NCBI RefSeq assembly: GCF_003334785.1
Contig: NZ_QOWV01000001.1
DNA length: 64,000 bases
Strand: one strand, 5' to 3'
Origin: Escherichia coli
Lineage (GTDB): Bacteria; Pseudomonadota; Gammaproteobacteria; Enterobacterales; Enterobacteriaceae
The notes under the pieces were generated by a model that searched no databases, was not told the DNA's origin, and saw nothing but the letters and a program-made list of their open reading frames with translations. Every line of letters starts with the position of its first letter. Position 1 is the first letter of the stretch. The translations under genes and the position numbers were made by a program. Positions 21,582 to 22,024 of this stretch are shown here, in pieces.

Positions 21582-22024
21582 GTGAACACAATACACCTGC
21601 GCTGTCTCTTCAGGATGAATCCCCTGGTCTGGTGCCTGCGGGCTGATGTTGCAGCAGAGCTTAGGTCACTTAGACGCTACTATCATTTATCCAATGGCAT
21701 GGAATCGAAATCAGTCGATACCCGCAGTATATATCGTGAACTGGGTGCAACGCTGAGTTACAACATGCGCCTGGGGAACGGTATGGAAATGAACCCTGGC
21801 TGAAGGCGGCTGTGCGCAAAGAATTTGTCGATGATAACCGGGTGAAGGTGAATAATGACGGTAATTTCGTCAATGATTTGTCGGGCAGACGTGGAATATA
21901 CCAGGCAGCTATTAAAGCCTCATTCAGCAGTACGTTTAGCGGACATCTCGGGGTGGGGTATAGCCATGGTGCCGGTGTGGAATCCCCGTGGAACGCGGTG
22001 GCTGGTGTGAACTGGTCGTTCTGA
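21582..22024 (+). pseudogene. ycgI: Remnant of an autotransporter beta-barrel C-terminus (ycgI-like), frameshifted near 21795
   Basis: Two short ORFs in different frames read ...RLGNGMEMNPG / WLKAAVRKEFVDDNRVKVNNDGNFVNDLSGRRGIYQAAIKASF...AVAGVNWSF, ending in the aromatic residue typical of outer-membrane beta-barrels. Confidence 0.5.

What the first reader, a model, noticed from the sequence alone, without database searches (positions are those of the whole stretch)
21582..22024. Orphan autotransporter beta-barrel C-terminus (ycgI-like remnant)
About 145 codons resembling the last strands of an autotransporter translocator (ending ...AVAGVNWSF), split by a frameshift near 21795, with no passenger domain or signal peptide upstream. 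This is a second autotransporter relic within 2 kb of ycgH.
Basis: partly seen in the sequence, partly recalled or inferred. Interest (0 to 1): 0.3.

Follow-up and report, generated by a model that had tools for sequence, protein, structure and literature searches.

The report
ycgI: known dead autotransporter remnant
This is the already-annotated E. coli K-12 pseudogene ycgI, the last 114 codons of a surface-adhesin (autotransporter) gene that lost its first 3.1 kb in one old deletion and then picked up a frameshift, so it is an ordinary piece of gene decay.

Summary
The window is E. coli K-12. The finding is the annotated pseudogene ycgI (b4521), at window 21681-22024.

- **Match to the family.** The repaired translation matches autotransporter beta-barrel models over their C-terminal 40% only (TIGR01414 E=5.5e-21; Pfam PF03797 E=5.3e-10).
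- **Origin.** Some E. coli strains, such as AR_0067, carry an intact 1136-aa paralogue of YpjA/EhaD at the same site, between ymgJ and minE. K-12 differs from it by a 3096-nt deletion with 1 nt of microhomology. The deletion removed 29 nt of 5' UTR, including the ribosome-binding site, and codons 1-1022.
- **Spread.** The junction is identical in five diverse strains. About 82% of 5,426 complete genomes have the deleted layout; about 7.5% still have the 5' end of the gene.
- **Frameshift.** It is real: one T is lost at 21789/21790, and 1,691 records share it. It is secondary, because other strains have no frameshift, different 1-nt deletions, a larger deletion or an IS truncation.
Bases 21582-21680 are the ancestral gene's upstream leader, not barrel codons. 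That leaves 114 autotransporter codons, not about 145.

Verdict: real, correctly interpreted, already known and non-functional. Low interest.

The parts
21681..22024 (+). ycgI pseudogene (b4521): codons 1023-1136 plus the stop codon of an ancestral 1136-aa YpjA/EhaD-like autotransporter. This is the last ~40% of the beta-barrel translocator and ends in NWSF.
   Evidence: MG1655 and W3110 annotation. TIGR01414 E=5.5e-21 and PF03797 E=5.3e-10. Base-by-base alignment to intact alleles.
21680..21682 (+). Deletion junction (GACGCTAC[T]ATCATTTATCC). Left of T21681 is the ancestral 5' leader ending 30 nt before the ATG; right of it is codon 1023. The microhomology is 1 nt. The missing segment is 3096 nt in the AR_0067 allele (L002 5906-9001).
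   Evidence: Alignments to AR_0067, PRO_A-1551 and RIVM_C037791. The junction is identical in K-12, FORC_069, 21KM1392, TUM13881, MS14387 and MEI3A.
21789..21790 (+). Site of the secondary 1-nt deletion: one T of ATT in codon 37 of the remnant. It shifts the frame.
   Evidence: Alignments. The exact K-12 61-mer is found in 1691 records, while other alleles span 62 nt.
21801..21803 (+). Premature TGA stop created by the frameshift. It ends the 73-codon ORF that starts at 21582.
   Evidence: ORF list and translation.
21582..21680 (+). It is retained ancestral upstream leader, open by chance in the same frame as the remnant.
   Evidence: Collinear with the sequence upstream of the intact gene's ATG. 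Frame open in the intact allele and in ypjA. The 73-aa ORF alone has no NCBIfam hit.
21325..21680 (+). Retained ancestral upstream or promoter-leader region, about 90% identical to the region upstream of ypjA. It contains the annotated small ORFs ymgJ (21381-21566) and a 39-aa ORF (21527-21646).
   Evidence: Alignment with the K-12 ypjA upstream region. Annotation.
22037..22064 (+). Retained intrinsic terminator of the ancestral gene: stem CTGCGC / GCGCAG, loop TTCG, then TTTTCGTTT.
   Evidence: RNA fold -19.9 kcal/mol, z=-5.5. Conserved in intact and deleted alleles.
17718..20365 (+). ycgH (b4491), the neighbouring and separate autotransporter pseudogene. It has a frameshift and an internal stop in K-12 and is intact (887 aa) in AR_0067.
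   Evidence: Annotation. ORFs.

Best explanation
Window 21681-22024 is the pseudogene ycgI of E. coli K-12. It is the non-functional 3' stump of a classical (type Va, AIDA-I-type) autotransporter adhesin gene that was a close paralogue of ypjA/ehaD.

Shown:
1. An intact 1136-aa gene occupies exactly this site, between the ymgJ leader and minE, in a minority of E. coli strains.
2. K-12 differs from it by one 3096-nt deletion with only 1 nt of microhomology. The deletion removed the last 29 nt of the 5' UTR with the ribosome-binding site, the start codon, the signal peptide, the whole passenger, the Pro/Asn-rich linker and the first ~60% of the barrel.
3. The same junction is present in phylogenetically diverse strains.
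4. After the deletion the stump decayed independently in different lineages. K-12 and about 1,690 other records lost one T at 21789/90. Other strains lost a different base, lost most of the stump, or are still in frame.

Inferred:
- The deletion was a single illegitimate-recombination event that later spread by descent and homologous recombination.
- The stump makes no functional protein. It has no start codon with a ribosome-binding site and no signal peptide, and only about 5 of 12 barrel strands remain.
- At most it is transcribed passively from the retained upstream region and terminated at the retained terminator.
For: - **Identity and annotation.** The window is 100% identical to W3110. 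ycgI b4521 is annotated at the same interval in MG1655, and PGAP marks it as a pseudogene in W3110.
- **Family match.** The match is restricted to the C-terminal end of the models.
- **Intact gene at the same site.** It has identical neighbours (ycgH, ymgD, ymgG, ymgI, ymgJ on one side, minE on the other) in AR_0067, PRO_A-1551 and RIVM_C037791. The intact protein has a signal-peptide-like N-terminus, AIDA/Ag43-type repeats and a full barrel: TIGR01414 E=8e-92, TIGR04415 repeats E=1.5e-37. It is 79% identical to YpjA overall and nearly identical over the last ~840 residues.
- **Breakpoints.** Resolved to the base.
- **Shared junction.** The same junction is seen in six alleles.
- **Population counts.** 4471 of 5426 genomes have the K-12-like contiguous layout. 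About 406 records keep the gene's 5' end at >=95% identity.
- **Independent secondary lesions.**
- **Substitution pattern.** Variants private to one remnant are 8 nonsynonymous to 4 synonymous, as expected without constraint. They include W40C and S113P in conserved motifs.
- **Dispensability.** Some genomes lack the region altogether (H30).
- **Literature.** One paper calls it a pseudogene (PMC6206680). Another reports that YcgI models give broken barrels (PMC7383365).
Against: - Counting all 21 variants seen only in remnants gives 10 nonsynonymous to 11 synonymous, a crude dN/dS of 0.27. Taken alone this looks like constraint. The shared, older variants account for it (2 to 7). They most likely predate the deletion or were imported from functional alleles or from ypjA.
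- Nucleotide diversity in the stump (3.7%) is not higher than in all flanking non-coding DNA; the downstream spacer is at 6.0%.
- The stump is retained in about 82% of genomes, and some alleles (FORC_069, MS14387) still have an uninterrupted frame.
- A single origin is inferred, not proven. The MS14387 stump is 1 nt from an intact allele but 13-17 nt from the other stumps.
- No outgroup species could be examined.
- No expression data were examined.
Confidence: 0.93

Rival explanations
1. The stump, together with the retained ~360-nt leader and terminator, is kept because it works as a transcript or small-protein unit. Candidates are a 3' UTR and terminator for a leader-encoded small gene (ymgJ or the 39-aa ORF), a regulatory RNA, or a spacer and terminator shielding the convergent minCDE operon.
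For: - The leader, stump and terminator are retained in about 82% of genomes.
- The leader is strongly conserved between the ycgI and ypjA loci.
- The terminator hairpin is intact.
- Shared variants in the stump are mostly synonymous.
- In a UTI89 expression-library screen, enrichment for filamentation extended from minCDE into the ycgI homologue. The authors say this could mean an effect on division or mere linkage (PMC6206680).
Against: - Independent frameshifts at three different sites, a 282-nt further deletion (MEI3A) and complete absence in some genomes.
- ymgJ is frameshifted in TUM13881.
- All 5 differences between the paralogous 39-aa ORFs are nonsynonymous (read directly).
- No Rfam family matches in 17000-25000.
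- Promoter-like sites are not clearly enriched: 5 against 2.8 +/- 1.8 expected.
- The library enrichment is explained by linkage to minC.
Confidence: 0.04
2. The stump is not the result of an in-place deletion. It is a 3' fragment copied from ypjA, or left by gene conversion or an abortive insertion, and the full-length gene seen in some strains was acquired later at the same spot.
For: - ypjA lies beside cryptic-prophage CP4-57 genes, so it is in a mobile context.
- The stump is about 96% identical to the ypjA 3' end and shares some variants with K-12 ypjA.
- Intact alleles are the minority, about 7.5%.
Against: - K-12 keeps about 356 nt of the paralogue-specific leader, ending 30 nt before where the ATG would be. 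It also keeps the locus-specific terminator, which differs from ypjA's from 12 nt after the stop. Both ends of the long allele are therefore present in K-12 and only the interior is missing, which is the signature of a deletion.
- A later acquisition would have to regenerate both flanks exactly.
- O157:H7 and O55:H7 carry independently IS-disrupted long alleles at this locus.
Confidence: 0.02
3. A truncated protein is made and functions. This would be the 73-aa or 70-aa K-12 ORFs, or the uninterrupted ~136-147-aa ORF in strains without the frameshift. It might act as a barrel fragment that interacts with BAM or with other autotransporters.
For: - The C-terminal NWSF beta-signal-like motif is intact in K-12.
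- The frame is open from GTG 21582 or ATG 21615 in non-frameshifted strains.
Against: - No signal peptide, so no route to the periplasm (sequence read directly).
- The ancestral ribosome-binding site was deleted.
- Only model positions 152-254 of 255 of the barrel remain.
- Lineage-specific frameshifts and hits to conserved residues: W40C, S113P.
- The 73-aa ORF has no family match.
- Published modelling gave a broken barrel (PMC7383365).
Confidence: 0.01

Closest known systems
ycgI (b4521), annotated pseudogene of E. coli K-12 MG1655/W3110
   Same: It is the same object. The coordinates coincide exactly (MG1655 1223564-1223907 equals window 21681-22024), and the sequence is 100% identical to W3110.
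   Different: Nothing differs. This work adds the exact parent gene, the breakpoints to the base, the size of the loss (3096 nt), and the fact that the frameshift is secondary and lineage-specific.
YpjA/EhaD (b2647), AIDA-I-type autotransporter adhesin of E. coli
   Same: - The intact allele at the ycgI site is a paralogue. It is 79% identical overall and nearly identical over the last ~840 residues.
- About 356 nt of upstream leader are also shared, at about 90% identity.
- The stump differs from the K-12 ypjA 3' end at 15 of 342 nt.
- PGAP names the intact allele 'adhesin-like autotransporter YpjA/EhaD'.
   Different: - Different chromosomal locus: next to minE, against the CP4-57 border for ypjA.
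- The parent protein is 1136 aa against 1526 aa, with a divergent N-terminal passenger (47% identity) and a longer Pro-Asn repeat linker.
- The sequence after the stop codon, including the terminator, differs.
- The K-12 copy is only a 114-codon frameshifted stump.
ycgH (b4491), the neighbouring autotransporter pseudogene
   Same: It is also a decayed type Va autotransporter gene in K-12 that is intact in other strains. It lies 1.3 kb away on the same strand.
   Different: - It is a separate gene with its own barrel. It was inactivated by a frameshift and an internal stop, with nearly its full length retained (2648 nt).
- ycgI lost 90% of its length.
- The two are separated by ymgD, ymgG and ymgI on the opposite strand.
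Solved autotransporter translocators: BrkA beta-domain (PDB 3qq2) and Vag8 (7akv)
   Same: The C-terminal 381 aa of the parent protein align end to end with these barrels (E=1.2e-23 and 9.2e-26).
   Different: The K-12 stump corresponds only to roughly the last 114 of the ~284 residues of the BrkA translocator. That is about five of twelve strands, which is an inference from the alignment coordinates.

Membership tests
Classical (type Va) autotransporter, functional member | N-terminal Sec signal peptide | tested here: not met
   Nothing upstream of 21681 derives from the gene's coding region. The ORF prefix MNTIHLRCLFRMNPLVWCLRADVAAELRSLRRY has no hydrophobic core. The intact allele starts MNRISRYYFHRSVLSLLIAAMIYAPPGMTAF, and that segment is deleted in K-12.
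Classical (type Va) autotransporter, functional member | Passenger domain (beta-helix or AIDA-type repeats) | tested here: not met
   The NCBIfam repeat and passenger models (TIGR04415, NF033176, NF033177) hit the intact allele but not the K-12 stump. The alignment shows codons 1-1022 are absent.
Classical (type Va) autotransporter, functional member | Complete 12-stranded C-terminal beta-barrel (PF03797 / TIGR01414 over its full length) | tested here: not met
   Only model positions 152-254 of 255 (PF03797) and 319-432 of 432 (TIGR01414) are present.
Classical (type Va) autotransporter, functional member | C-terminal aromatic beta-signal (terminal Phe or Trp) | tested here: met
   The sequence ends ...AVAGVNWSF followed by TGA at 22022-22024.
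Classical (type Va) autotransporter, functional member | Uninterrupted reading frame with a start codon and ribosome-binding site | tested here: not met
   There is a 1-nt deletion at 21789/90 and a stop at 21801-21803. The ancestral GAGG ribosome-binding site and the ATG lie inside the deleted segment.
Homology to the autotransporter beta-domain family (as a relic) | Significant profile match to autotransporter barrel models | tested here: met
   TIGR01414 E=5.5e-21, 75.1 bits against a cutoff of 16. PF03797 E=5.3e-10.
ycgI (b4521) pseudogene of E. coli K-12 | Same coordinates, same neighbours and same sequence as the annotated locus | tested here: met
   The MG1655 record lists pseudogene ycgI b4521 at 1223564-1223907, between ymgJ and minE. 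The window is 100% identical to W3110 across 21100-22400.
YpjA/EhaD lineage (parent gene) | Close sequence identity to ypjA through the barrel and autochaperone region | tested here: met
   The intact allele is near-identical to K-12 YpjA from residue ~300 to the end. The stump differs from the ypjA 3' end at 15 of 342 nt.
Pseudogene (non-functional, unconstrained) | Independent disabling lesions in different lineages, and dispensability | tested here: met
   Three different 1-nt deletions, one 282-nt deletion, an IS1203 truncation and genomes lacking the region.
Pseudogene (non-functional, unconstrained) | Substitution pattern consistent with neutrality | tested here: inconclusive
   Singleton variants are 8 nonsynonymous to 4 synonymous, which looks neutral. 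All remnant-only variants are 10 to 11, a crude dN/dS of 0.27. The sample is small and recombination or gene conversion with intact alleles is likely.
Pseudogene (non-functional, unconstrained) | No transcript or protein product | not testable with these tools
   No expression data were available. The promoter scan is uninformative.

The most novel reading that the evidence does not exclude
The retained unit of a ~356-nt leader conserved between the ycgI and ypjA loci, the stump and the terminator is still transcribed. It would have a role of its own, such as a regulatory RNA or micro-protein that influences the convergent minCDE operon or cell division. The stump would then be preserved as its 3' end rather than being pure debris.
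Probability: 0.04. Interest if true: 0.35.

Novelty: already known. Interest (0 to 1): 0.06.

Why it matters
It matters little. ycgI is a catalogued pseudogene in the best-annotated bacterial genome.

The modest added value is descriptive:
- The parent gene is now identified: a 1136-aa YpjA/EhaD paralogue, still intact next to minE in about 7% of complete E. coli genomes.
- The deletion is mapped to the base.
- The K-12 frameshift is shown to be a later, lineage-specific lesion.

This makes the locus a tidy example of stepwise adhesin-gene decay. It also warns annotators that bases 21582-21680 are leader, not coding remnant. Studies that list YcgI among K-12 outer-membrane proteins should treat it as absent.

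Tried and rejected
- **Outgroup test.** One scan of genome contigs used a degenerate pattern that matches both the deleted and the intact left junction. It returned only two contigs, both E. coli sequence binned into Collinsella and Clostridiales MAGs. No Escherichia species representative matched, so polarity from outgroups remains untested.
- **Deletion mechanism.** I looked for a direct repeat that would explain a recurrent deletion. Only 1 nt (T) is shared at the breakpoints. A nearby imperfect TAT(T)CATTT similarity does not give the observed junction. Repeat-mediated recurrence was rejected in favour of a single illegitimate event.
- **Programmed frameshifting.** Rejected. The gene has no start, and other lineages carry different indels or none.
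- **RNA families.** An Rfam scan of 17000-25000 found nothing at gathering thresholds.
- **Promoter and terminator scan.** Promoter-like sites are not clearly above expectation. The scan missed the obvious + strand terminator, which folding confirmed.
- **Literature.** Searches for the parent gene's name (ycgH + ypjA + autotransporter; ypjA, EhaD, pseudogene) gave nothing useful.
- **Neutrality test.** Inconclusive.
- **Counting intact alleles.** Using the whole gene as query was confounded by ypjA at 92-93% identity. A 5'-end query with identity bands solved this.
- **Technical note.** Several fetched loci were not available to the Python sandbox, so those alignments were done with DNA alignment.

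Full report
**Where we are.** A 1301-nt query around the finding (window 21100-22400) is 100% identical to E. coli K-12 W3110 and matches 5,425 of 5,426 complete E. coli genomes. The local gene order is:
- ycgH pseudogene, 17718-20365 (+)
- ymgD, ymgG, ymgI (-)
- ymgJ, 21381-21566 (+)
- a 39-aa ORF, 21527-21646 (+)
- a PGAP pseudogene labelled 'autotransporter outer membrane beta-barrel domain-containing protein; frameshifted; incomplete; missing N-terminus', 21681-22024 (+)
- minE, minD, minC (-)

The MG1655 RefSeq record names that pseudogene ycgI, b4521, at 1223564-1223907, the same 344 nt. Two papers treat it the same way. PMC6206680 calls UTI89_C1357 'a pseudogene ... the homolog of ycgI in E. 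coli K-12', next to minE. PMC7383365 notes that structure prediction for YcgI gave a deformed or broken barrel.

**Checking the observation.** Two + strand ORFs carry the signal: 21582-21803 (73 aa, GTG start) and 21812-22024 (70 aa, ending AVAGVNWSF).
- Joined across the shift, the 114 residues from YHLSNG... to ...NWSF match TIGR01414 (autotransporter barrel) at E=5.5e-21 over model positions 319-432 of 432. They match Pfam PF03797 at E=5.3e-10 over positions 152-254 of 255.
- The 70-aa ORF alone still matches (E=2.3e-9). The 73-aa ORF alone matches nothing.

**The parent gene.** In strain AR_0067 the interval between the 39-aa ORF and minE holds an intact 3411-nt gene (L002 5935-9345). Every neighbour from pdeG to nhaB is the same as in K-12. 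PRO_A-1551 and RIVM_C037791 show the same arrangement. The 1136-aa product has:
- a signal-peptide-like N-terminus (MNRISRYYFHRSVLSLLIAAMIYAPPGMTAF)
- AIDA/Ag43-type strand-loop-strand repeats (TIGR04415 E=1.5e-37; Ag43 and AIDA-I models E=8e-54 and 2e-46, far below their equivalog cutoffs)
- a long Pro-Asn repeat linker
- a full barrel (TIGR01414 E=8e-92)

Its last 381 residues align end to end with the solved BrkA and Vag8 translocators. It is a paralogue of K-12 YpjA/EhaD: 79% identical in the main alignment, almost identical from residue ~300 to the end, and about 47% identical in the N-terminal passenger. PGAP accordingly names it 'adhesin-like autotransporter YpjA/EhaD'.

**Anatomy of the lesion.**
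- K-12 is collinear with the sequence upstream of the intact gene as far as ...CTTAGACGCTACT (window 21681). In the intact allele this is followed by CAGTATTCATTTTTCAGAGGATGAAATTT and then the ATG.
- From 21681 onward K-12 is collinear with the intact gene from codon 1023 (TAT CAT TTA TCC = YHLS) through the stop codon and the terminator.
- One T is shared by both sides. The missing block is L002 5906-9001, 3096 nt. It comprises 29 nt of 5' UTR including the GAGG ribosome-binding site, plus codons 1-1022.
- I found no direct repeat that would produce this junction, so illegitimate recombination with 1-nt microhomology is the likely mechanism (inference).
- The ancestral terminator (CTGCGC-TTCG-GCGCAG followed by a T-run, about 22037-22064) is retained and folds at -19.9 kcal/mol, z=-5.5.

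The autotransporter frame happens to be open for 44 codons upstream of the annotated ATG, both in the intact allele and in ypjA. The 3096-nt deletion is a multiple of three. In K-12 the leader therefore runs in frame into codon 1023, which gives the apparent ORF from GTG 21582. Those first 33 codons (21582-21680) are leader, not barrel.

**The frameshift.** Against all intact alleles and against the deleted allele of FORC_069, K-12 lacks one T of ATT at 21789/21790. This creates the TGA at 21801-21803. The exact K-12 61-mer spanning the site occurs in 1,691 records; other alleles span 62 nt. The shift is real and lineage-wide, not a sequencing error.

**Population picture.** 4,471 of 5,426 genomes (82%) have a single match covering at least 80% of the K-12 query, which is the deleted layout. 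About 406 records (305 at >=99% and 101 at 95-99%) carry the 5' end of the long allele. Some of those are IS-disrupted, as in O55:H7 and O157:H7.

Five deleted alleles that are between 94.7% and 100% identical to K-12 over the 1301 nt share the junction to the base. They differ in later damage:

| Strain | Later damage to the stump |
|---|---|
| K-12 | 1-nt deletion at codon 37 |
| FORC_069 | none |
| MS14387 | none |
| 21KM1392 | 1-nt deletion at codon 6 |
| TUM13881 | 1-nt deletions at codons 6 and 92 |

Three further strains show other states:
- MEI3A lost all but 63 nt, between two GAACTGG repeats.
- O157:H7 F8797 has an IS1203-truncated 753-nt 3' piece.
- AR_0369 matches only the minE end of the query.

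This is the pattern of a dispensable, decaying sequence.

**Selection test (weak).**
- Variants found only in remnants are 10 nonsynonymous to 11 synonymous, a crude dN/dS of 0.27. Taken alone this looks constrained.
- Split by frequency, the variants private to one remnant are 8 to 4. That is about the neutral expectation, and they hit conserved residues (W40C in EPWLKA, S113P in NWSF).
- The variants shared among remnants are 2 to 7.
- The five intact or ypjA sequences show 10 to 9.
- I read the shared variants as polymorphism inherited or imported from functional alleles. In support, the MS14387 remnant is 1 nt from the intact AR_0067-type allele but 13-17 nt from the other remnants. That points to recombination or gene conversion across this locus.
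- Nucleotide diversity in the stump (3.7%) is comparable to the leader (3.2%) and below the downstream spacer (6.0%).

This test is inconclusive and I give it little weight.

**Mechanism and function.**
- Shown: the start codon, ribosome-binding site, signal peptide, passenger and about 60% of the barrel are gone, and the frame is broken.
- Inferred from established knowledge of type Va secretion: Sec export needs a signal peptide, and a 12-strand barrel assembled by BAM is needed for translocation. No functional autotransporter or outer-membrane protein can therefore be made from five terminal strands in the cytoplasm.
- The retained upstream region and terminator may allow passive transcription. 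I could not test this.
- No Rfam family matches 17000-25000. Promoter-like motifs are not clearly enriched.

**Comparison with the known, and novelty.** This is ycgI itself, so it is already known. The only correction is the 5' limit: 21681, not 21582, and 114 codons, not about 145. What this analysis adds is the identity of the parent (a YpjA/EhaD paralogue still intact in about 7% of genomes), the breakpoints to the base, and the secondary, lineage-specific nature of the frameshift.

**Unresolved.** Whether the deletion arose once is also unresolved, as is the transcription status.

Interest is low.

Noticed in passing
window 21325-21680 (compare L011 5275-5606): About 356 nt upstream of the ancestral autotransporter start are about 90% identical to the region upstream of ypjA in K-12. 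The stretch includes the annotated ymgJ and a 39-aa 'hypothetical protein'. The duplicated unit is therefore leader, gene and 12 nt after the stop. All 5 differences between the two 39-aa ORF copies are nonsynonymous, and ymgJ is frameshifted in strain TUM13881. These small ORFs may be spurious, and the conserved leader may be a cis-regulatory element of YpjA-type genes.
   Followed up: partly
L002 5803-5934 and L011 5504-5635 (equivalent to window 21579-21680 plus the deleted 29 nt): The autotransporter reading frame is open for 44 codons upstream of the annotated ATG in both the intact allele and ypjA. It contains in-frame GTG and ATG codons (MNPLVWCLRADVAAELR...). Either this is chance (about 13% for 44 codons) or the real start or leader peptide lies further upstream than annotated.
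   Followed up: partly
window 21681-22024 compared with L007, L002, L009, L010: Mosaic haplotypes. The remnant of strain MS14387 differs by 1 nt from intact alleles of the AR_0067 type but by 13-17 nt from the other remnants, although it has the identical deletion junction. The K-12 remnant shares several variants with K-12 ypjA and the O157 allele. This suggests recombination or gene conversion across the locus after the deletion.
   Followed up: partly
L010 about 4600-4615 (equivalent to window 21678-21681): The intact allele of strain RIVM_C037791 has a 7-bp tandem duplication (TACTCAG TACTCAG) exactly at the position of the K-12 left breakpoint. This hints at a slippage-prone or break-prone spot.
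   Followed up: no
window 17718-20365: ycgH (b4491) is a nearly full-length autotransporter pseudogene in K-12, with a frameshift and an internal stop. It is intact (887 aa) in AR_0067 and RIVM_C037791. In PRO_A-1551 PGAP names it an 'ECIAI39_1904 family autotransporter adhesin' with an internal stop. Two adjacent adhesin genes decayed independently in K-12.
   Followed up: partly
L003 7338-9345 (O157:H7 F8797): In O157:H7 the same gene is truncated by IS1203, leaving 753 nt of the 3' end. The DNA upstream is replaced by an ompT-containing, IS-rich segment. In O55:H7 DEC5E the long allele is interrupted by an IS3-family element.
   Followed up: no
L008 682-744 (strain MEI3A-1023): A further deletion between two GAACTGG repeats (in K-12 coordinates about 21738-21744 and about 22010-22016) leaves only 63 nt of the remnant. 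Strain AR_0369 matches only the minE end of the query.
   Followed up: partly
window 22037-22064 (+): There is a clear intrinsic terminator: 6-bp GC stem, TTCG loop, T-run, -19.9 kcal/mol, z=-5.5. The consensus terminator scan did not report it, probably because flanking A/T pairs extend the stem into the T-run.
   Followed up: yes
window 22025-22395: The spacer between ycgI and minE is the most variable segment of the region among five strains: 13% segregating sites, 12 indel columns and pi of 6.0%. It includes a variable G-run and short indels at about 22265-22280. Two strong minus-strand terminator-like hairpins (22371-22344 and 22120-22103) lie downstream of minE.
   Followed up: no
L011 10580-11485: K-12 ypjA, the functional paralogue, lies directly beside CP4-57 cryptic-prophage genes (ypjF toxin, yfjZ antitoxin, ypjJ) and downstream of a recombinase fragment. 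This gene family therefore sits in a mobile-element context.
   Followed up: no
L012 (JAIJJM010000485.1) and L013 (URTG01000020.1): Two metagenome-assembled genomes labelled Collinsella sp. and uncultured Clostridiales contain contigs that are plainly E. coli. One carries the intact 5' junction of this gene and the other a FORC_069-type ycgI remnant. This is likely binning contamination.
   Followed up: partly
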